Shown: positions 22,270-38,940, numbered from the stretch's first letter. The stretch is 39,434 nucleotides of DNA from Verrucomicrobiota bacterium (GCA_045046875.1 JASFYY010000092.1:1-39434), one strand, 5' to 3'. Numbers and translations: made by a program. The notes: generated from the sequence alone by a model not told the origin.

Positions 22270-22299
22270 AAACAGGCCGCCTTTAAGGGCGGCCTGTTT
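22270..22299. terminator. Bidirectional intrinsic terminator
   Basis: Perfect 12-bp stem AAACAGGCCGCC / GGCGGCCTGTTT with a 6-nt loop, between convergent genes. Confidence 0.85.
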
Positions 22300-22320: not shown

Positions 22321-22635
22321 CTAGTTGCTGCTTTGTAAGAAGTCCCGGATGGCACGGTAGTCTGAGCCGGTGAGGTTGGCGCGAATTCTCATGTGCATGC
22401 TGGCAACTTCCCATTGCGCATCGGAGTATGATCCCGGGTCGCGGTAGTTGTGACAGCTGGAGCAATTGTTAGCCCAAAGCTCGGCACCGCTTGGTTGCAT
22501 AGCGGCACCGTCATCATCCCCAGAGGATAAGGTGGAGCAAGCACTTAGGGTCAATGCCAGTGCAGTGAGACTAAGGAAAGCGATGACGTAACGCGGTGTG
22601 CGTTGTTCAGAAGTGTGAGTTGGTTTCGCATTCAT
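22321..22635 (-). CDS. Small monoheme cytochrome c lipoprotein
   Basis: Lipobox LSAC; heme motif CSSCH; distal W..ASMHMR supplies a candidate axial ligand. Confidence 0.82.
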   Translation of the reverse strand: MNAKPTHTSEQRTPRYVIAFLSLTALALTLSACSTLSSGDDDGAAMQPSGAELWANNCSSCHNYRDPGSYSDAQWEVASMHMRIRANLTGSDYRAIRDFLQSSN

Positions 22636-22682
22636 GTTGGTAAAAAAATATAGTGGTTTGATCTCGATAGGTCTAATGGGTT

Positions 22683-24044
22683 TTAGAATCCGATGGCTGC
22701 CTGAACGCGAACGCCGGTGAAGTCGGTGCTTTCGCCGCCTTCTCGTTCGTTTCCAAATTCGTAGGAGGCTTTAAGGGCGGTGCTGGCATTGATCCAGTAG
22801 TTGATGCCGAAGCTCATCCGGTCGATTTTAGAATCGCCCGGTCGGTTGACCCAATCGTATCGGGCAACTGGTTCGAGCGATTTGATGAAGTTATTGTCGA
22901 TTTCCATCGGGCGATAGGCCAGTTGGCCGTAACCACCACGACTGCCGTTACCAAAATCGAGCGGGGAAATTCCGGGGTTGTCGATGTCGAGCCAGACTAG
23001 TTGGGCTCTAGCATCAATGACTCCCATTAGTAGGGATGAATTTTTGACGTAGTTGGCGTCGATGGATTGAGTGACGGCGTCAACATTACGGAATGCGCTG
23101 CCTGAAGGTGCCACGCTGGCAAATTCGAATCCATAACCAATGTCAAGTGAGGGGATGGGCTTGAACCCGATGCGTCCACCGACAGCCTTGTTGTTATTGA
23201 GGTCGCTGAAATTGTTAAAATCAAGACTGCCTGCCTCAGGGCTGTGATCGCCGCCTTCACCCTCGACATTCAAAGAGGGGCCGTTGGAGAGATATGCAGC
23301 GTAGGTCAAACGAGTGGTGCCAATGGGAAGCCCCCCACGAGCCTGGATGCCGAGCTGAGTTCCTGCCATCAAGCCGCCGTGGCCGAAGGGCAGGGGTGCT
23401 GAAGCAAATTTATTGATCCACGCCGGGTGAAGGCGTTCGCTGAAGTAGTTGCTTGGGTTGAGGAACTTTCCGACACCGATAGTGATGTAATCGCTGACGA
23501 TGTAAGAGATTTGTGCATATTCCAAGCCGACTTCGGTTTCATTGTCTTCGACAGATAATTCTAGTTCGCCTTCAAATAAAATTTCATCACTCATTTTCCA
23601 GAGAAAAATCGGGTTAAAGCTCGCATTAAACGAAGAGTCTTCGTTGCTGAGATTATTGAAGCCAGCAAAGGCAAACCCCGTTAGCAAGAAGTTGGTGGAT
23701 CCAGGGCTGATGTAATCTGATGATTCTTCAAGAGCGGTTAGTCGTTCTTCGAGCGCGGTGTCAATAGCCGGAGCGCTTACTTCGACTACCGCTTTGCCTC
23801 TACCACCTGCCGGGGCTGGGGCTGCCGCAGCGGGCGCTTGCGCTTTTGCCGCTAGCACTTGCTGCATCTGGGCTTTGAGTGTGTCCAGTTCTTGTTTAAG
23901 TTTGTCGTATTCGGCGCGGGAAACAGGTGTCTCTGCTTTAGCTGCGTCAGTTTTTTTACTGGCTTCCTGAGCGGAAAGGCTCCCGCTGAGTGTCGTTGCT
24001 GACAAGGCCAGCAGAATGAGTAGGCTTCGTTTCATCGTTTTCAT
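22683..24044 (-). CDS. Outer-membrane beta-barrel porin with N-terminal coiled coil
   Basis: Signal peptide, coiled coil (EYDKLKQELDTLKAQMQQ), Ala/Pro linker, alternating amphipathic strands, DLNNNKAVGGRIG, C-terminal Phe (QAAIGF). Confidence 0.85.
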   Translation of the reverse strand: MKTMKRSLLILLALSATTLSGSLSAQEASKKTDAAKAETPVSRAEYDKLKQELDTLKAQMQQVLAAKAQAPAAAAPAPAGGRGKAVVEVSAPAIDTALEERLTALEESSDYISPGSTNFLLTGFAFAGFNNLSNEDSSFNASFNPIFLWKMSDEILFEGELELSVEDNETEVGLEYAQISYIVSDYITIGVGKFLNPSNYFSERLHPAWINKFASAPLPFGHGGLMAGTQLGIQARGGLPIGTTRLTYAAYLSNGPSLNVEGEGGDHSPEAGSLDFNNFSDLNNNKAVGGRIGFKPIPSLDIGYGFEFASVAPSGSAFRNVDAVTQSIDANYVKNSSLLMGVIDARAQLVWLDIDNPGISPLDFGNGSRGGYGQLAYRPMEIDNNFIKSLEPVARYDWVNRPGDSKIDRMSFGINYWINASTALKASYEFGNEREGGESTDFTGVRVQAAIGF

Positions 24045-24075
24045 GGATAATTAGAGCGTGTGAGGTGAAAATGGC

Positions 24076-24513
24076 TTATTTAGCCAGAGTTCGAATGTAG
24101 TTGAGAATGTTCCAACGATCAGTGTCGCTGAACGCAGCTTTGAAGGGGGGCATAGGTCCACGACCTTCGGACATTTTCCAGAAAATTGCTCCATCACTTT
24201 GACCTTTCATTCGTTTGGAATCAGTGAGGTTGCCGGGATGGATGGGCAGGGCGACTGCAGCAGCACCATTACCTTTACCTCTAGCTCCATGGCAAGGCAG
24301 GCAGGCTGCTTTGTAGAGTTTTTTGCCTTTTCGGACAGATGCCTTGTCAGCACTCACTGGATTCTTTTTCGAGGACGCTGAACTGGGAGCGTTCCAAGGG
24401 GCACCCATCGGTTTGTCGGCGGCGTAGGTGGTTGCGGCAAAGGCTGCGGAGAGGGTGAGTGCGGCAACGATAGAAGCGGGGGACTTACGGTTTGTTTTAG
24501 GTTGGTCTTGCAT
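24076..24513 (-). CDS. Periplasmic class I monoheme cytochrome c
   Basis: Signal peptide; GKKLY..ACLPCHG..G.G; distal GPMPPF methionine. Confidence 0.9.
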   Translation of the reverse strand: MQDQPKTNRKSPASIVAALTLSAAFAATTYAADKPMGAPWNAPSSASSKKNPVSADKASVRKGKKLYKAACLPCHGARGKGNGAAAVALPIHPGNLTDSKRMKGQSDGAIFWKMSEGRGPMPPFKAAFSDTDRWNILNYIRTLAK

Positions 24514-24523
24514 CTTAGTTGTT

Positions 24524-24551
24524 AATACGTCGGAAAGATGCTGACCCCTTT
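24524..24551 (-). promoter_or_regulatory. Putative ECF-sigma promoter of the cytochrome-porin operon
   Basis: Minus strand reads AAAGGG-N16-CGTATT, ending 10 nt before the ATG at 24513; resembles the motifs at 24576 and 27785. Confidence 0.55.
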
Positions 24552-24575
24552 AAAAAACATTTTTTTAAAAAAACA

Positions 24576-24604
24576 TGAGGGATTTTTCGAGCTTATGTCG
24601 TTAT
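24576..24604 (+). promoter_or_regulatory. Putative autoregulatory ECF-sigma promoter of the cnrYXH-like operon
   Basis: TGAGGG-N17-CGTTAT ending 10 nt before the ATG at 24615. Confidence 0.6.
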
Positions 24605-24614
24605 ATTAGCCAGT

Positions 24615-24953
24615 ATGATGCAGGATGAAGAACTAGAAGAGGAACTGATGCAGCTGCGAAACCGTCAGGTTCCGGATTTGCCGGGCAATATGTCGTCACG
24701 GGTTTGGCGATCCATCCAGCGACGTGAGGAAAGTGCGCCGCCGGTCTTTTTTTCCTGGCCGTTATGGCTGGCGCAACCGGTGATGGCCTTGCTTTTTCTA
24801 GGGATGACAACAGGCTTTGGTTTTGTTTATGGCTCGAATTTCGAGGGAGCTTCGAACTCTGAGCCTACTAGCGGCGATTTAGCTTGGGCGGATGCATTTG
24901 ATGTCAATTCGCTCTATTTGCCATTGCCAAGTTCACACGGGAGAGGGCGATGA
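24615..24953 (+). CDS. CnrY/NccY-like single-pass anti-sigma factor
   Basis: 112 aa; short cytoplasmic N-terminus (P.NMSSRVWRSI), one TM helix, short periplasmic tail; first gene of a Y-X-H order; ATGA overlap with the next gene. Confidence 0.7.
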   Translation: MMQDEELEEELMQLRNRQVPDLPGNMSSRVWRSIQRREESAPPVFFSWPLWLAQPVMALLFLGMTTGFGFVYGSNFEGASNSEPTSGDLAWADAFDVNSLYLPLPSSHGRGR

Positions 24954-25408
24954 AAAAACAGGGTGCAGTGGGTTTGTTGACGGTGGCGGCGGTGGTATTT
25001 GTCGCTTGTCTGGGTGGCTGTTATCTGGGTATTGGTTTGAGCCGCGGGCATTCTTCTGAGTCTGCCAAGCACAGCGGTGGAGCGACTCATGCGGAGCTTC
25101 ATCAAGCTCTTGTTTTGACTTCCCAGCAAGAGGAGAAATTGATTCCTCTTGAGGCCAAGGCAAAAAAAAGAGAGGATGAGTTGCGAGGCGCTCTCAATGC
25201 AGCCAACGCGGACCTTGCCAGAGTTTTGGTTAGTGAACGTTCGTATTCGCCGGAAGTTGAAAAATCTGTTGAGAAGATACACAAAGCGATGGCAAAATTG
25301 CAAAAGGCTACTTTGGAGCATTTGTTCGAGATGGAGGAAATCCTTACCCCGGAGCAATATGACCAGTTGTTGCAACTTGCCGGCGAGTCTCTGCCTCATT
25401 CCCATTGA
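24950..25408 (+). CDS. CnrX/NccX-like membrane-anchored periplasmic heavy-metal sensor
   Basis: N-terminal TM; HAELH, E68, AANADLA, SPEVE, LQKATLEHLFEM match CnrX motifs as recalled (HEILH, AANGKLA, SPEVE, LQRATLVHVFEM). Confidence 0.88.
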   Translation: MKKQGAVGLLTVAAVVFVACLGGCYLGIGLSRGHSSESAKHSGGATHAELHQALVLTSQQEEKLIPLEAKAKKREDELRGALNAANADLARVLVSERSYSPEVEKSVEKIHKAMAKLQKATLEHLFEMEEILTPEQYDQLLQLAGESLPHSH

Positions 25409-25424
25409 AGCGCTTCTGGCATAG

Positions 25425-26045
25425 ATGATGGAGGCAGATTCAACGCTCGATACGAACGGCGAAGTTGATCGTGATGAAGTCGATCAAGCGCTGATCCTAC
25501 GTTTGCAGCAGGGAGATGATCTGGCTCTGAACGAGATCATGTTGCGTTATCAGCAGGCATTGCATAGTTACGCGTATCGTTTTGTGAACGATACCGATGA
25601 AGCTGCAGATCTGGTTCAGGAGGCTTTTGTGCGGGTGTATCTGAAACGTTCCAAGTATAAACCCAAGGGGAAGTTCCGAACCTGGCTTTATACCATCACT
25701 GGTAATTTGTGTCGCGACTGGATCCGCTCACGCAAACGGCGTCCGTTGCATTATGTGGAGCAAATATTTGATAGCCAGCTTTCGGGCAATGTGGATCTGG
25801 ATCAAATGCGCAAACCTAGTCCTGATCCAGCACAGCTGGTGATGGCTGAAGAAAAAAACACGCGAATCATGCGGGCGATAGACACCTTGCCGGTCGATTT
25901 GAAACAAGCTTTGATACTTTTTTCCCTGGAGGGCAATACGCAGGAGGAGGTAGGGATTTTGTTGGGATGCAGTGTCAAGGCGGTGGAGACGCGTGTGTAT
26001 AGGGCTAAAAAGCAGCTAAAAAAATATCTGCAAAATTTGGATTAG
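25425..26045 (+). CDS. ECF RNA polymerase sigma factor (CnrH-like)
   Basis: Region 2 DLVQEAFVR...[13 protein letters not shown]; region 4 [22 protein letters not shown]. Confidence 0.92.
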
Positions 26046-27727
26046 AATGAAGTCCGGCGGTAGGCGCGGTATTCGGGGAACCACATACTGCGCTTGATAG
26101 ATTCTTTTAATACCGATTCATCGACCCGGGTGGCTACCCCTTCTTCCATCGCTTGTTTACCTATTTCAAAAGCAATGTGGGCACTCAATTCACGAATGTT
26201 GTCGAGCTCGGGCAGCAGAAAATCTCCCTCACCTCTAACTAAAGGAGAGAATTCGGCAAGAGCTTCACTAGCGGTGATAAACATTTCTTCGCTCACCCGT
26301 CTGGCCCCGCTGGCTATGATGCCCAAGCCAATGCCGGGGAAGATGTAACTGTTGTTGCACTGGGCGATGGGATAGGTCTTCCCTTTGTATTCAACGGGGT
26401 CAAAAGGGCTGCCAGTGGCGACGATGGCCTGTCCGTCGGTCCAGCGAATGACATCTTCGGGCAGAGCTTCTACTTGTGAGGTTGGGTTTGAAAGCGGGAG
26501 TATGATGGGTTGCGGGCAGTGGCTGTGCATATTTTTAACCACTTCTTCATTGATCAGGCCGGGCTGCCCGGATACTCCGATGATGATAGTGGGCTGCGCT
26601 TGCTTGATCACTTCCAGCAAGCGGACGGCTCCGTCGTGGTGGCTCCAATCGGCGACTTCGTTTTTAGTTTTGGTGAAGCGTTTTTGGAAATCCATCAAGA
26701 AATCCATGTCTTCAGTTAGTAGGCCCTCTTTCCCAATCAGGTGGACTTGATCGATGGCTTGCCGTTCCGTCAGCCCTTCTTTCATCATGTGGGCTACGAT
26801 TTGTGTCGCTATGCCGCAGCCTGCCGAACCAGCGCCGACAAAAACCACACGGTGATCTCTCAGCTTGGATTTCTGAGCATGGCAAGCGGCCAATAAGGTG
26901 CCGACGGTGACCGCGGCGGTGCCTTGGATGTCATCGTTAAAACAACACACTTGATCCTGATATTTTTTCAACAGGGGTGTGGCATTTTGTTGGGCAAAGT
27001 CTTCAAATTGGATCAATACATGAGGCCAGCGGCGTTTGACCGCTGAGATGAATCGATCAACAAAATCAAAATATTCATCACCGGTGATGCGCGGGTTTCT
27101 CCAGCCCATGTACATCGGGTCATCGAGCAATTCTTGATTATTGGTCCCTACATCAAGTGTGACCGGCAGGGTGTAAGCGGGACTGATGCCGCCACAAGCA
27201 GAATAAATGGCCAATTTACCAATAGGAATTCCCATGCCTCCAATGCCCTGGTCGCCGAGCCCGAGAATGCGCCCGCTATCGGTCATCACGATCACCTTGA
27301 CATTTTGTTTGGTGGCATTTTGCAGCATGTCATCCATGCGGTCACGGTCTGGGTAGGAGATGAAAAGACCGCGTTTGCGGCGGTAGATCTGAGAGAATAG
27401 CTGGCACGCTTTGCCTACGGTGGGGGTGTAGATGATGGGTAGCATTTCCTCTAAGTAGTTATTGACCAGCCTCAAGTAGAGGGTCTCGTTGGCGTCCTGG
27501 ATGTTGCGCAGGTAAATGTGCTTGTCGAGGTCGTTGTCAAACTGGGAGAACTGCTGGTAGGATCGTTCGACTTGTTGTTCGATGCTTTCTATTTGGAAGG
27601 GCAGCAGACCTTCGAGATTGAAGGCACGTCGTTCCTGCAGGGTGAAAGCGCTGCCTTTGTTTAATAGGGGCGTTTCCAGCAGGACGGGGCCGGCGTAACG
27701 AATGTAGAGTGGTCTTTTATCTGTCAT
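26042..27727 (-). CDS. maeA: NAD-dependent malic enzyme
   Basis: [56 protein letters not shown]. Confidence 0.96.
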
Positions 27728-27784
27728 GGATGAGTTGTAGCGCCGTGGATGGAAATATCGAAATGCAGGAACTTACTAAAATAT

Positions 27785-27811
27785 TGAGGGGTGTTGCATG
27801 GTAGTGGCGTT
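27785..27811 (+). promoter_or_regulatory. Putative ECF-sigma promoter upstream of the DUF3347-type gene
   Basis: TGAGGG-N17-CGTT, identical in boxes and spacing to the motif at 24576. Confidence 0.55.
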
Positions 27812-27917
27812 TGATAAAATAGTAACACACCTCACCCAAGGTCAACGTGCACTACGGGAATGCAATAACAATGCTGATACGAGGCAATAATCAAATAGCC
27901 AAATCAAAATATAGAAT

Positions 27918-28391
27918 ATGAAAAAAACATTAATCACTTTATTATTAGTATCGCTTGCCAGTGTTTCTTCACTGAGAGCGGAGAAAAAAGAACATGATCA
28001 CGGTAAGCATGAGCATGCTAGCCATGAAGCTCATGAAGCTCATGCAGGTCACATGCTGGAGGCTTATATAAAAATTTCTACCGCCTTGAGCAAAGATGAT
28101 TTGGCGGCGGCTAAAAAGGCGGCTGCTACGATTCCGGAGCATGACGAAGACAGCTCGCTGGCCAAATCTGCCACTGCTTTGTCCAAAGCAAAAAATATCA
28201 AAGCGGCGCGTAAAGAGTTTCAGACTTTGAGCAAAAATGCGATCAAGATTTCCGCAGGCCGCAAAGGTTTTTACGTGATGCATTGTCCGATGGTGAAAGG
28301 TGGCGCAGGAGACTGGTTGCAGACCAGCAAGGAAGTTGCCAACCCTTACATGGGATCAGCAATGCTGACCTGTGGTGGTGTTAAGAGATAA
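27918..28391 (+). CDS. Secreted His-rich DUF3347-type metal-binding protein
   Basis: Signal peptide; EHDHGKHEHASHEAHEAHAGH; YVMHCPM, WLQ, NPYMGSAMLTCG motifs. Confidence 0.82.
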   Translation: MKKTLITLLLVSLASVSSLRAEKKEHDHGKHEHASHEAHEAHAGHMLEAYIKISTALSKDDLAAAKKAAATIPEHDEDSSLAKSATALSKAKNIKAARKEFQTLSKNAIKISAGRKGFYVMHCPMVKGGAGDWLQTSKEVANPYMGSAMLTCGGVKR

Positions 28392-28457: not shown

Positions 28458-28522
28458 GGGGGACGCGGGTGATGAGTAAAGTATAAGTTGCCGCAGGCGG
28501 GGGCTTGCCTTTAGCTTGTCTG

Positions 28523-30976
28523 ATGAATTGGAAAACCCCGATCACAATTTTACTGGGATTAGTCTGCGCTTGCTTATCTGAACACGATCTGAGGGGGGGG
28601 GATTCAGGCAGCGTGAAGAAGTCAAAAACTCCGGTGCCCCAACTGGAGGCCTACGAAAGTTGGAAAATGGCAGGCAGGGATCAGGAGGGATCGTTGACGA
28701 GTGCGGCGACGATTTTTGCTCCACAAGGTTTCAAGGTGGAGCTGTTGCACGCAGCGACGGAAGAGGAGGATTCCTGGGTGGGGATGACGTTTGATGGCAA
28801 GGGACGACTGATCGTGGCGATGGAGGACAAAGGGCTGCTGCGGATGACCTTGGGCAAGCATAAGGTGGATGAAGTAGAAGTGATCAATCAAGAGCTGGAA
28901 GAATGCCGCGGGCTGTTGTGGGCTTACGATGCGCTGTATGCCAATGCCAATGATTCGAAGGGCTTTTATCGCCTGCGTGATACAACGGGGGATGATCACT
29001 TGGATGAAGTGAAGTTGTTATTGAAAACCGGAGGTGGGGTAGGGCATGGGCGCAATCATTTGCGCCTGGGGCCGGATGGCCTGATCTATCTGGTGCATGG
29101 CAATAGTGTGGAATTGCCAGACCAGATGAAGTTGGTATCTCCGTATCGAAATCAGGCGGAGGATCAATTGATCCCCAACCCGTGGGACAAGGAATGGCAT
29201 CGGCGGGAGGGAAGGGTTCCCACCGGGCATATTCTGCGCACGGACAAGGACGGCAGTTTTTTTGAACTGGTTGCGGCTGGAATGCGTAATCAATTGGATA
29301 TTGATTTCAATCAGGATGGTGAGGCATTTGTGTATGAGGCGGATATGGAATGGGAGACTGGCACGGCTTGGTATAAACCTACAAGGGTCTTGCATATCGT
29401 GCCGGGAGGGGAATACGGCTGGCGACGGGCAACAGGTAAGTGGCCGGCCTATTATGAGGACAGTTTACCTGCGGTGCATGATGTGGGGCTGGGGTCACCG
29501 ACGGGAGTGGCTTTTGGTCATCGCAGTAATTTTCCAGGCAAGTACCGCGATGCTTTTTATGTTGGGGAATGGTCATACGGCCGGATTTTGGCGATTCATA
29601 TGACGGAGCAGGGGGCAAGTTATGTAGGGGAAGAAGAGACTTTTATTCTTGGCCGTCCCTTGAATGTGACGGATTTTGAGTTCGGCCCGGATGGGGCGAT
29701 GTACTTTGTGACCGGAGGGAGGAAAACCCAGTCGGCGTTGTATCGTGTGTCCTATGTGGGGGATGGTAAAGAGGGAGCGGCAGAAAATAGTGAAGTAGAT
29801 GTAAAAGCACTAGAGCAGGAAAAAATAGGGAGGAAAAAATCGGTTAAATTACGTAAATTGCGGCATGAGCTCGAAGAGCTGCAAAAATTGGTAGGAAAAC
29901 GTCCTCTTGAGCGAGCTTTGGCGAACATCGATCATGAGGATCGTTGGATTCGTTTTGCCGCACGAGTGGTCTTGGAGAATCAAGCGGTGGAGGATTGGCA
30001 GGAACAGGTAGTGGAATCGGGAGCGTTAACCGGATTACTCGCTCTTGCCCGCGTGGGTGATTCTTCGCAGCGTGAGAAAATCATCGCTCAGCTTAATTCT
30101 TTGAGTTTAGGTGAGATGGAAGCGGGGCAGTTGTTGAGAGTCCTACGCGTGTATGAGTTGGCATTTACGCGGATGGGGGAACCTGGAGATCAAGAGCGCT
30201 TGCGCTGTATCGCAAAACTTGCTCCATTGTTTCCTCATGCTCATACTTCGGTGAACCATGAGTTGTGTGAGCTGTTGGTTTATCTGCAAGCACCGCAGGT
30301 TTTGGATAAAACGTTGGCCTTGTTGGATGCGGCGCAAGACTCACGCGATTTGTCCCAGTATTTGCTTTATGCGCGTTATGTGAAAACGGGTTGGGATTTG
30401 GAAAAACGCCGTCGTTATTTAAGCGGCCTGCGAAAGTTTGAAAAAATCCCAGGAGGCCGGTGGTCGGTTAGGGCGGCGGATTCGCTACGCAAAGAGATCG
30501 TAGCGACCATGAATCAAAATGAGCTCAAAGTGCTGGAGGAAGAAATAAAAAAAGCGGTGCCTGAGCTGCCTCTTCCCCTGGTAAATGCCGAGCCCGCTAA
30601 ATTTGTCCAAGCTTGGGCGATGGACGATTTTTCCAAGGACCTGGCCGGGCCATTGGTGAATCGATCCTTTGAACGAGGCAAGCAGGCTTATTTGAAAACG
30701 CAGTGCGCGATGTGTCATCGCATGGCTTCGGTGCAAGCGACGGCTTCATCGGTCCTGGGGCCGGATTTGACGGGTGTGGGTAATCGTTTTTCGGTGAGGG
30801 ATTTGTTGCAGTCGATCATTCACCCTTCACGGGTGATCGGGGATAAATACCGCAACCCGGCCGGTCCGAACGTCTCGCTGATGCCTGCCGGATTGATTAA
30901 TAGTTTGGATAAAACCGAGGTGTTGGATTTGTTGATGTATTTGCAATTAGGAGGGGATCTTAAAAATGATAAATAA
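28523..30976 (+). CDS. PVC-type heme-binding protein (sorbosone dehydrogenase-like propeller, HEAT-like repeats, cytochrome c)
   Basis: GFKVEL, GPDGLIY, GMRN, GSPTG, GPDGAMYF; CAMCH, GPDLT, SLMP; start taken at ATG 28523. Confidence 0.85.
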   Translation: MNWKTPITILLGLVCACLSEHDLRGGDSGSVKKSKTPVPQLEAYESWKMAGRDQEGSLTSAATIFAPQGFKVELLHAATEEEDSWVGMTFDGKGRLIVAMEDKGLLRMTLGKHKVDEVEVINQELEECRGLLWAYDALYANANDSKGFYRLRDTTGDDHLDEVKLLLKTGGGVGHGRNHLRLGPDGLIYLVHGNSVELPDQMKLVSPYRNQAEDQLIPNPWDKEWHRREGRVPTGHILRTDKDGSFFELVAAGMRNQLDIDFNQDGEAFVYEADMEWETGTAWYKPTRVLHIVPGGEYGWRRATGKWPAYYEDSLPAVHDVGLGSPTGVAFGHRSNFPGKYRDAFYVGEWSYGRILAIHMTEQGASYVGEEETFILGRPLNVTDFEFGPDGAMYFVTGGRKTQSALYRVSYVGDGKEGAAENSEVDVKALEQEKIGRKKSVKLRKLRHELEELQKLVGKRPLERALANIDHEDRWIRFAARVVLENQAVEDWQEQVVESGALTGLLALARVGDSSQREKIIAQLNSLSLGEMEAGQLLRVLRVYELAFTRMGEPGDQERLRCIAKLAPLFPHAHTSVNHELCELLVYLQAPQVLDKTLALLDAAQDSRDLSQYLLYARYVKTGWDLEKRRRYLSGLRKFEKIPGGRWSVRAADSLRKEIVATMNQNELKVLEEEIKKAVPELPLPLVNAEPAKFVQAWAMDDFSKDLAGPLVNRSFERGKQAYLKTQCAMCHRMASVQATASSVLGPDLTGVGNRFSVRDLLQSIIHPSRVIGDKYRNPAGPNVSLMPAGLINSLDKTEVLDLLMYLQLGGDLKNDK

Positions 30977-37728: not shown

Positions 37729-38940
37729 TCAGCTCTCGACTGCGGGTGCAGCCTTTTCCTGATTGTCTTCAGCCGTTTCACTAGAAGCTTCCGGACTGGT
37801 CGCCGTTTCTGCCACTTCAGTGGTTTCGGGAGCTTCAGAGACTTCTGAGGCCTCAGAGGCTTCAGGAGTTTTGTTTTCAGCTCCGCTGATGTTAAGTTTG
37901 CGACCCATGAAATCTTTGTTGTTCAAGATTTCGACGGCACGTTGAGCTTCGTCGATGTGGCTCATTTCAACAAAACCGTAACCTTTGGATTGATGGGTGT
38001 CGGGATTGGCGATCACCTCGGTGCTGACCACCACGCCGATGCCCTTGAACAATTCTTCGAGCTCTTCTTCGCCCACTTCGTAGTCGAGGTTGTCGAGTTT
38101 GAGGCGACTGGAAGTGACGATCACAGGTGTTTCCACTTTAGGGGTGCGACGGGGTTCTTCCCGACGTTCGGAGCGACCGCCACGGTTATTACGTTCGCTT
38201 CCGCGTTCACCTCCACGCTCGTTGCGGCGGTTGCGATCATTGCCTGAGCCGTCACGTTCTTCACTGCGACAGTTGTTGTCACGGCGTTCTCCGCCTTCAC
38301 CACCTGCGCCCTGGCTTTTGGCTCCGTTGACCAACATGCGACGACCCATGAAGTCTTCATTGTGGTAAGTGCTGACCGCTTTGCGAGCTTCTTCGATGCT
38401 GCTCATTTCAACAAAAGCAAAACCCTTGGATTGCTGGGTGCGGCGATTGATGACGATTTCCGCAGACTTGACTGTGCCGATTTGGGAAAAGTGTTTTTCC
38501 AAATCAGAACCGGTGGTTTTGTAGTCAAGATTGCCGACGTAGAGGCGTTCGGATGTCACTTCGACCTTTTCAGCCGGGCGTTTGTTGTCACGGCTTTTAG
38601 AAGATGGGTCGCTAGATCGCTTGCGATCATTAGTGGGCGCGGGGCTTTTGGTGTCACCTCCTAATCCCAGGAAGGACAAGATTTTTTGCAGGAAAGTCTG
38701 CTTTTTGACTACTTGGCGGCCACGATTGGAGGGGCGGTATTCCCGTTTGCCTCCGTTATTGTCTCCATTACGAGGGCGGCGATTGGAATTACCTCCACTG
38801 CCACCGCTATTGCGGCTGTTTCCACGGTTGTTCTGACGACGGCGTCCGCCGCGTTGACCTTGACGATTTTGACCTGAGCGATCCTGACGATCGCCTGATG
38901 ATGAATTTTCCATTTTGATTCGAATTTTTGAGGGATCCAC
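37729..38940 (-). CDS. Two-RRM RNA-binding protein with low-complexity regions
   Basis: RNP2 LYVGNL / LKLDNL and RNP1 KGFAFVEM / KGYGFVEM; R/N/G-rich linkers; acidic tail. Start may be ATG 38913. Confidence 0.9.
   Translation of the reverse strand: MDPSKIRIKMENSSSGDRQDRSGQNRQGQRGGRRRQNNRGNSRNSGGSGGNSNRRPRNGDNNGGKREYRPSNRGRQVVKKQTFLQKILSFLGLGGDTKSPAPTNDRKRSSDPSSKSRDNKRPAEKVEVTSERLYVGNLDYKTTGSDLEKHFSQIGTVKSAEIVINRRTQQSKGFAFVEMSSIEEARKAVSTYHNEDFMGRRMLVNGAKSQGAGGEGGERRDNNCRSEERDGSGNDRNRRNERGGERGSERNNRGGRSERREEPRRTPKVETPVIVTSSRLKLDNLDYEVGEEELEELFKGIGVVVSTEVIANPDTHQSKGYGFVEMSHIDEAQRAVEILNNKDFMGRKLNISGAENKTPEASEASEVSEAPETTEVAETATSPEASSETAEDNQEKAAPAVES

What the first reader, a model, noticed from the sequence alone, without database searches (positions are those of the whole stretch)
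22321..28391. Candidate new metal-response regulon: CnrYXH-like sensor wired to a porin-cytochrome operon instead of an efflux pump
Seen: anti-sigma, periplasmic sensor and ECF sigma in cnrY-cnrX-cnrH order, back-to-back (101-bp gap) with cytochrome c, porin and lipoprotein cytochrome c. A His-rich DUF3347-type gene lies 1.9 kb further on, and all three units share a promoter-like motif. No RND, CDF or P-type ATPase gene is in the window. Known: in Cupriavidus, cnrYXH controls the adjacent cnrCBA Ni/Co efflux pump. Inference: this cascade drives an envelope redox/sequestration response (changing metal oxidation state, or capturing metal at the outer membrane). I do not know of such an output being described.
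Basis: partly seen in the sequence, partly recalled or inferred. Interest (0 to 1): 0.88.

Follow-up and report, generated by a model that had tools for sequence, protein, structure and literature searches.

The report
Copper regulon with porin-cytochrome add-on
A known type of metal-sensing switch appears to turn on this bacterium's ordinary copper pumps and also an unstudied outer-membrane pore with two small cytochromes, which may change the charge of metal ions as they cross the cell surface.

Summary
The genes, their order, the 101-bp gap and the shared motif are all real. "Instead of an efflux pump" is wrong. I built a promoter matrix (TGAGGG-N15/16-CGTT) without any efflux sites and scored the upstream regions of 3,751 ORFs in the same genome. 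It ranks the Cu-ATPase copA first and a CusCBA-type pump third. Both sites recur in relatives, and the motif matches the CnrH promoters. CnrYXH-like sigmas next to copper oxidase and CopB are already described (ECF291).

The new part is the output module. The pore is a predicted 16-strand OprP-like porin. Its small cytochrome is found in 61 of 69 loci across four phyla. The model docks that cytochrome in the porin's periplasmic mouth (0.91 against 0.01 for the best control). The other cytochrome is fused to the porin in 17 of 150 relatives. This resembles the iron oxidase Cyc2 in split form.

Copper genes flank 31 of 69 loci against 2.8% background, but only 3 of 22 PVC loci. The link to Y-X-H is confined to one genus. 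My best guess is a copper regulon with an accessory metal-redox pore; substrate and direction are untested.

The parts
22270..22299 (.). 13-bp hairpin with T-runs on both strands: likely bidirectional terminator closing the porin operon
   Evidence: listed on the + strand; the - strand T-run is read from the sequence
22321..22635 (-). Small monoheme cytochrome c lipoprotein (lipobox Cys36; CxxCH 58-62; invariant W75, H81, M82); predicted to dock in the porin's periplasmic mouth
   Evidence: (weak SorB match, E 1.2e-4)
22683..24044 (-). 16-strand OprP-like outer-membrane porin with N-terminal helices
   Evidence: pLDDT 89.9; OprP Z 27.1, rmsd 2.6, 292 aligned; PF07396 in 55 of 108 relatives
24076..24513 (-). 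Periplasmic class I monoheme cytochrome c; fused to the porin in some relatives
24523..24551 (-). Putative ECF promoter of the cytochrome-porin operon (AAAGGGG-N15-CGTATT), about 10 nt before the ATG
   Evidence: counterparts in L001 and L002
24576..24605 (+). Putative autoregulatory ECF promoter of Y-X-H (TGAGGGA-N16-CGTTAT)
   Evidence: counterparts in L001, L002, L101
24615..24953 (+). CnrY-like putative anti-sigma factor (one hydrophobic stretch)
   Evidence: position -2 and a weak NCBIfam anti-sigma match, E 0.043; function inferred
24950..25408 (+). CnrX/NccX-like periplasmic metal sensor; H47, H51, E68, H124, M128 align with the CnrX metal site
   Evidence: (NccX E 6.4e-15, CnrX E 1.8e-13); the only PF13801 match in the genome
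25425..26045 (+). ECF sigma factor, CnrH-like by context and promoter
27785..27814 (+). Putative ECF promoter of DUF3347 (TGAGGGG-N16-CGTTTG)
   Evidence: counterparts in G094 and G093
27918..28391 (+). His-rich periplasmic DUF3347 protein; the same domain occurs twice in the CusB-like subunit on C93, so it is probably a pump accessory or chaperone
   Evidence: directly behind cusA in G095

Best explanation
This is the master regulator of a dispersed copper-stress regulon, with an accessory outer-membrane redox module attached. Step 1 (inferred from CnrYXH, about 0.85): metal binds the periplasmic sensor X, the anti-sigma Y releases the sigma, and the sigma reads TGAGGG-N15/16-CGTT promoters. 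Step 2 (promoter evidence shown, regulation inferred, about 0.85): targets are Y-X-H itself, the Cu-ATPase copA (C49), the CusCBA-type pump (C93), DUF3347 and the cytochrome-porin-cytochrome operon. Step 3 (inferred from the targets, about 0.75): the inducer is copper. Step 4 (modelled, about 0.75): the small cytochrome binds the periplasmic mouth of the 16-strand porin, with its heme-ligating His62 next to the near-invariant Trp of constriction loop L3. Step 5 (inferred, about 0.6): the docked heme exchanges electrons with a solute in the pore, and the soluble cytochrome relays them to or from the respiratory chain. Step 6 (speculative, about 0.3): the reaction is Cu(I) oxidation that needs no O2-binding multicopper oxidase. 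The overall confidence covers steps 1-4 plus some redox role.
For: A matrix trained on 7 non-efflux sites ranks copA first (22.6 bits) and cusC third (18.8) among 3,751 ORF upstream regions; the four other metal-pump-like RND operons (C3, C38, C45, C91) score 6.3 or less. The copA site recurs in G093, G094 and G096, and the cusC site in G092, G093 and weakly G094. G095, which has no sensor match (96% complete), had no site above 13 bits in the copA and cusC loci fetched. cnrYp and cnrCp of pMOL28 read AGGGG-N16-CGTA, and sphingomonad copA promoters TGAGGGG-N15-CGTAT. The C49 ATPase passes the Cu-ATPase cut-off TIGR01511 and carries CPC, YN and MxxSS motifs. The C93 RND is closest to CusA (E 7e-184, against ZneA 7e-115) and keeps its three Met positions. 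For the module: the small cytochrome is in 61 of 69 porin loci, and 7 of the 8 misses end at the locus edge; CxxCH fusions occur in 17 of 150 porin representatives. The complex scored 0.91 against 0.01 for the best of 3 controls; that mark was reached by 116 of 157 solved and 2 of 215 mismatched pairs, runs agreed in at least 94% of contacts and partner pLDDT was at least 86. Strict copper genes flank 31 of 69 loci against 80 of 2,879 control windows. A 4Fe-4S/NrfD pair sits directly upstream of the trio in 5 of 69 loci. G094 adds a cytochrome c-heavy-metal-domain fusion behind the same motif. This genome's only PF07732 match is a nitrite reductase, and it has no CopB match.
Against: There are no expression, binding or activity data. 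Copper genes flank only 3 of 22 PVC loci (3 of 15 at 10 kb or more); other loci sit among haem-synthesis, multiheme, Usp and Crp-type genes. The porin is absent from 131 of 134 family genomes, and in G093 the operon is broken by an IS200 transposase, so it is dispensable. G094 has both the module and copAB, so the module does not simply replace the oxidase. The cusC site score alone is within the shuffle background (4 hits above 19 bits and 22 above 17 per shuffled genome). G096 cusC had no site above 13 bits. The matrix does not score the cnr promoters above 11 bits. The sensor keeps the Ni/Co ligand set. The complex run used my own alignments and a heme ligand, unlike the tool's calibration. 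The genome is 94.7% complete, so absences are provisional.
Confidence: 0.6

Rival explanations
1. One reading: the cascade drives a redox or sequestration response in place of efflux.
For: No transporter lies in the window; the divergent operon and DUF3347 carry the promoter.
Against: The same promoter precedes copA and cusCBA here and in relatives. In G093 cusCBA lies next to the porin operon. The closest family sensors sit beside CusA, P-type ATPases or copper oxidases.
Confidence: 0.05
2. The regulon is as described, but the trio is a general low-oxygen electron-transfer module for a non-copper solute (Fe(II), Mn(II), a sulfur or selenium oxyanion, a nitrogen oxide). It rides on copper islands and was captured by this promoter in one genus.
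For: 38 of 69 loci lack strict copper genes. Neighbours include NrfD/4Fe-4S, multiheme cytochromes, haem synthesis and Usp/Crp-type genes. Distant porin relatives precede a hydrogenase cluster. The fold is closest to the anion porin OprP, with weak matches to ExtI and SorB.
Against: Copper genes flank 13 of 15 proteobacterial and 11 of 20 Bacteroidota loci of 10 kb or more, often in the same-strand gene run. The promoter is kept before the cytochrome in L001 with a fully diverged spacer.
Confidence: 0.25
3. The module reduces Cu(II) to Cu(I) with electrons from quinol, priming copper for the Cu(I)-specific Cus pump or precipitating metal at the surface.
For: A 4Fe-4S/NrfD pair lies directly upstream in 5 of 69 loci, one of them followed by cusCBA (L033). 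Reductive metal precipitation via porin-cytochrome complexes is proposed in Geobacter (PMC7726332, passages).
Against: No outward-facing heme: the model places the cytochrome on the periplasmic side, and several proteobacterial copies lack a lipobox. His/Met monoheme cytochromes are usually high-potential (recalled).
Confidence: 0.12
4. The sensor responds to Ni/Co like CnrX, and the regulon is a nickel/cobalt one.
For: The CnrX ligand set is intact; some family relatives sit beside RcnA/RcnR or Zn/Cd-type transporters.
Against: In this genome only Cu(I)-type exporters carry the site; the four other metal-pump-like RND operons do not. The region upstream of the ZntA-like ATPase on C96 is cut by the contig end and could not be tested.
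Confidence: 0.1

Closest known systems
CnrYXH of Cupriavidus metallidurans / ECF291 group (PMC6851896 passages; PMC7826278 passages and supplement passages; PMC13492112 passages and section 15)
   Same: Gene order Y-X-H, PF13801 sensor with the same five ligand positions, promoter core AGGG-N15/16-CGT, autoregulation, RND efflux among the targets. The group is reported beside multicopper oxidase, CopB, CopCD, a P-type ATPase and a TonB receptor.
   Different: Verrucomicrobial host (the group is reported as 98.45% Proteobacteria and 1.55% Cyanobacteria). Targets are scattered over three contigs and are Cu(I)-type. A porin-cytochrome operon is added. The sigma does not fall inside the well-supported CnrH plus sphingomonad clade.
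Cyc2 / Cyt572 fused cytochrome-porin Fe(II) oxidases (PMC8406198 passages; PMC13741234 section 19)
   Same: 16-strand OprO/OprP-like barrel with one c-type heme on the periplasmic side facing the pore.
   Different: The docking cytochrome is a separate downstream gene, probably His/Met-ligated. A second cytochrome is separate or joined by a long linker. The context is copper stress, not Fe(II) lithotrophy. Sequence homology to Cyc2 was not tested.
CopAB/PcoAB (multicopper oxidase plus outer-membrane barrel; PMC5566968 passages)
   Same: A periplasmic redox partner paired with an outer-membrane barrel in copper-resistance clusters, hypothesised to act together.
   Different: Here the redox centres are hemes and the barrel is OprP-like; the two systems co-occur in L001, L049 and L059-L062.
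Porin-cytochrome conduits MtrAB/MtoAB, PCC3, PCC4 (PMC5566968 passages) and Geobacter ExtI
   Same: A porin gene flanked by c-type cytochromes, sometimes with a quinone-linked inner-membrane partner.
   Different: Only monoheme cytochromes, no extracellular heme and a small barrel; the ExtI model is matched weakly by 2 of 108 relatives.

Membership tests
CnrYXH-like / ECF291 | PF13801 sensor at position -1 with CnrX metal ligands | tested here: met
   ligand list from PMC6851896 (the Met position was read from the alignment and recalled)
CnrYXH-like / ECF291 | Single-TM CnrY-like anti-sigma at position -2 | tested here: inconclusive
   Right place and size, one hydrophobic stretch by eye; no Pfam match, NCBIfam anti-sigma E 0.043
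CnrYXH-like / ECF291 | Sigma clusters with CnrH by sequence | tested here: inconclusive
   It falls in a 20-row group of sensor-linked sigmas with CnrH at only 80/89 support, outside the 97/98 CnrH clade; CnrH E 4.9e-19, RpoE scores higher; no ECF291 HMM was available
CnrYXH-like / ECF291 | Promoter of the CnrH type | tested here: met
   cnrYp and cnrCp read AGGGG-N16-CGTA; the ECF291 consensus in PMC13492112 Table 4 is the reverse complement of TGAGGG...GCGTAT
CnrYXH-like / ECF291 | Efflux or copAB genes at +1 to +4 | tested here: not met
   A convergent malic enzyme follows the sigma; copAB follows it in L001 and cusA in L101; efflux genes carry the promoter elsewhere
CnrYXH-like / ECF291 | Metal-dependent sigma release | not testable with these tools
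   needs experiment
Cyc2 | 16-strand OprO/OprP-like barrel | tested here: met
Cyc2 | Monoheme cytochrome fused at the N-terminus of the barrel | tested here: not met
   Separate genes in the window; 17 of 150 relatives carry a CxxCH, and the 11 of these that I read have a class I cytochrome joined by a long linker
Cyc2 | Sequence homology to Cyc2 | not tested
   The attempt to fetch a Cyc2 gene by motif found none in 5 genomes, so no comparison was made
Cyc2 | Fe(II) oxidase activity | not testable with these tools
   needs experiment
MtrAB/PCC3/PCC4 conduits | Multiheme cytochromes | tested here: not met
   one CxxCH in each cytochrome
CusCBA (target on C93) | HME-RND above cut-off with the CusA Met triad | tested here: met
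   TIGR00914 773 against cut-off 701; the three Met positions align (their role is recalled)

The most novel reading that the evidence does not exclude
The cytochrome-porin-cytochrome trio is an undescribed, widespread 'split Cyc2': an OprP-like porin plugged from the periplasm by a minimal monoheme cytochrome that oxidises Cu(I) in the pore and passes the electron through a second cytochrome to the respiratory chain. That would give copper detoxification that works without oxygen, recruited independently under CusRS, MerR-type and here CnrH-type control.
Probability: 0.3. Interest if true: 0.82.

Novelty: new variant of a known kind. Interest (0 to 1): 0.55.

Why it matters
The regulator is a new member of a known class, but it yields a predicted copper regulon for a verrucomicrobium and supports reading the ECF291 promoter as TGAGGG-N15/16-CGT. 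The larger prize is the three-gene module. It occurs across PVC bacteria, Bacteroidota and beta/gamma-Proteobacteria (69 loci; 678 porin clusters at E 1e-10 or better), has no family model of its own, and has a confident, testable docking model. If it is a heme-based metal oxidoreductase at a porin, it would bear on how Gram-negative cells handle periplasmic Cu(I) when multicopper oxidases lack oxygen. It would also offer a separable, two-piece analogue of Cyc2, whose structure is reported as unsolved (PMC13741234).

Tried and rejected
'No efflux partner' was rejected. A conserved Y-X-H plus porin system was rejected: Y and X in 2 of 69 loci, porin in 3 of 134 genomes. An extracellular multiheme wire was rejected: single hemes and periplasmic docking. 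The raw motif count was rejected as evidence, 11 against 8 control. The fold search of the small cytochrome was uninformative (best Z 4.7; chlorobial cytochromes at Z 3.8-4.1). The motif search for Cyc2 genes found none in 5 genomes. The RNA run search listed no RNA holder, which is no evidence either way. Earlier scan findings gave nothing relevant. Literature searches found no description of the trio or of a copper-sensing CnrX relative, and DUF3347 with copper gave 0 papers. The library lacks most subscription papers, bioRxiv supplements were not available, and the PMC7826278 supplement was cut when stored, so prior mention cannot be excluded. My first copper count (40 of 69) used loose thresholds that let in non-copper ATPases; it was replaced by the strict 31 of 69. 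Rubrivivax CopJ, which I had recalled as a cytochrome, is described only as a CxxC protein (PMC4600104 passages) and was dropped. Pore selectivity could not be called: 12 conserved acidic and 13 conserved basic columns.
Full report
OBSERVATION. The sensor matches PF13801 and the solved NccX and CnrX proteins; H47, H51, E68, H124 and M128 align with the CnrX metal site. It is the only PF13801 match in the genome. The anti-sigma is identified by position and a weak match only. The motif precedes all three units. None of the 33 window proteins scanned is an RND, CDF or P-type ATPase. The closest relatives are verrucomicrobial.

THE MOTIF IS A CnrH-TYPE PROMOTER. On pMOL28 the DNA before cnrY and cnrC reads AGGGG-N16-CGTA, and sphingomonad plasmids have TGAGGGG-N15-CGTAT before copA and before Y or copC. 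PMC13492112 (passages and section 15) gives CCGTATA as the verified -10 element, and lists an ECF291 consensus that is the reverse complement of this motif. Orthologous sites with diverged spacers stand before Y and before the divergent gene in L001 and L002. These two loci are the same DNA as G094 and G093 and are counted once.

THE REGULON INCLUDES EFFLUX. I trained a matrix on 7 sites from the window, L001 and L002, none of them at an efflux gene. Among the 200-bp upstream regions of 3,751 ORFs of 150 aa or more, the top three are the C49 ATPase (22.6 bits), DUF3347 (20.2, a training site) and the first gene of the C93 RND operon (18.8). The ATPase is Cu-type. The RND is CusA-like and keeps the Met positions, and its adaptor carries two heavy-metal domains and two DUF3347 domains. 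The four other metal-pump-like RND operons score 6.3 or less. The copA site was found in 3 of 4 genus relatives with a copA match, and the cusC site in 3 of 5, one of them weak. G095, which lacks a sensor match, had neither site in the loci fetched. Against this, the raw pattern count is at chance and 18.8 bits alone is within shuffle background, so the argument rests on position and conservation.

A NON-EFFLUX OUTPUT FOR THIS REGULATOR TYPE IS ALREADY IN PRINT. The supplement of PMC7826278 (passages) reports multicopper oxidase, CopB, CopCD, a P-type ATPase and a TonB receptor beside ECF291 sigmas. L001 has copAB right behind the sigma. Of 20 family regions fetched around sensor matches (from 72 match rows), the closer ones lie beside CusA, P-type ATPases or oxidases, and the more distant ones mostly beside TonB-receptor-like genes (part of the output was cut). 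Membership of ECF291 by sigma sequence is unresolved. The link to the porin operon is local: Y and X occur in 2 of 69 porin loci, and the porin in 3 of 134 family genomes against 60 of 134 for the sensor.

THE OUTPUT MODULE. The 453-aa protein folds as a 16-strand barrel with N-terminal helices (pLDDT 89.9). Its best structural match is OprP (Z 27.1, rmsd 2.6, 292 aligned; next 24.4), and 55 of 108 relatives match PF07396 weakly. It has 678 clusters at E 1e-10 or better. In 69 genomic loci from PVC bacteria, Bacteroidota, Proteobacteria and a few other phyla, the small cytochrome was found in 61, and 7 of the 8 misses end at the locus edge; a relative of the larger cytochrome was found in 60. 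Seventeen of 150 porin representatives carry a CxxCH. Of 12 long ones that I read, 11 have an N-terminal class I cytochrome on a linker. The small cytochrome keeps W75, H81 and M82 in 25 of 25 aligned copies, and several proteobacterial copies lack a lipobox.

THE PREDICTED COMPLEX. Porin plus small cytochrome plus heme scored 0.91 against 0.01 for the best of 3 controls. That mark was reached by 116 of 157 solved and 2 of 215 mismatched pairs; runs agreed in at least 94% of contacts and partner pLDDT was at least 86; the job differed from the calibration in using my alignments and a ligand. By strand order (my reading), the contact residues are periplasmic turns and loop L3. His62 touches porin W209/I210 (W in 94% of relatives). 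M82 is not in the interface list, which fits a role as distal heme ligand, while H81 faces the porin. This is a model, not a measurement. It is the arrangement predicted for Cyc2, a 16-strand OprO/P-like porin with one periplasm-side heme and no solved structure (PMC8406198 passages; PMC13741234 passages and section 19). Homology to Cyc2 was not tested.

WHAT IT ACTS ON. Strict copper genes flank 31 of 69 loci against 80 of 2,879 21-kb windows of this genome. For loci of 10 kb or more the split is 13 of 15 Proteobacteria, 11 of 20 Bacteroidota, 3 of 15 PVC and 1 of 2 others; related genomes are not independent. Other contexts are respiratory or low-oxygen: 4Fe-4S/NrfD in 5 loci, haem synthesis, multiheme cytochromes, Usp and Crp-type genes (61 of 82 selected neighbours were scanned). 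A redox role is thus better supported than a specifically copper one. This genome shows no CopA-type oxidase or CopB (94.7% complete), but G094 has both systems. A precedent for cytochromes in a metal-stress response exists in Geobacter (PMC7726332 passages), and porin-oxidase pairing has been hypothesised for PcoAB (PMC5566968 passages). I favour Cu(I) oxidation (about 0.3) over a non-copper solute (0.25) and Cu(II) reduction (0.12); the rest covers non-redox roles such as gating.

VERDICT. The regulator is a copper-type CnrYXH-like cascade whose core targets are ordinary pumps. The porin-cytochrome trio is a real, widespread module for which my searches found no description (listings only, in an incomplete library). 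It is the part worth experiments. Novelty: new variant of a known kind. Interest 0.55.

Noticed in passing
L109-L111, L113, L115, L118-L120 (family relatives): A second, more distant set of Y-X-H-like loci has a 720-755 aa gene right behind the sigma; TonB-receptor or plug matches were found for 6 of the 8 tested. This suggests metal uptake rather than export. ECF291s4 is reported with a TonB receptor.
   Followed up: partly
L142 (G094:C276): A 232-aa His-rich lipoprotein with a CxxCH cytochrome domain and a C-terminal CPMHP heavy-metal motif has its own promoter site and lies upstream of DUF3347.
   Followed up: partly
L002:9230-10810: In this relative the promoter now precedes a short His-rich lipoprotein ORF; an IS200 transposase has removed the first cytochrome and the 5' part of the porin.
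   Followed up: partly
L010, L024, L026, L029, L033: A 4Fe-4S protein, an NrfD-like membrane protein and an Ig-like protein lie directly upstream of the trio: a possible uncharacterised quinone-to-porin chain.
   Followed up: partly
window 24514-24522 and 24606-24614: Both divergent -10 elements end about 10 nt before the ATG, as in L001, implying nearly leaderless mRNAs.
   Followed up: no
G000:C48:61863 (L125): A 20.5-bit site lies 244 bp upstream of a 346-aa ORF that looks patatin-like by eye, with a similar site in G093:C96. It overlaps the start of a divergent gene, so it may be coding conservation.
   Followed up: no
L127, L128, L129: Distant porin relatives (about 26% identity): a 758-aa cytochrome-porin fusion followed by two cytochromes on one plasmid, and porin-containing operons in front of NiFe-hydrogenase clusters, near copCD, on two marine plasmids.
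   Followed up: no
PMC13492112 Table 4 against L152: The ECF291 consensus is printed as -35 ATACGC / -10 CCCTCA, which is the reverse complement of the motif actually upstream of cnrY and cnrC.
   Followed up: yes
L130 (G094:C255): The copA orthologue is 99% identical but has one TAG inside the match.
   Followed up: no
window 37729-38940 and 28505-30976: A 403-aa protein with two RNA-recognition motifs, and an 823-aa DUF7133/cytochrome c dehydrogenase-like protein right after DUF3347.
   Followed up: no
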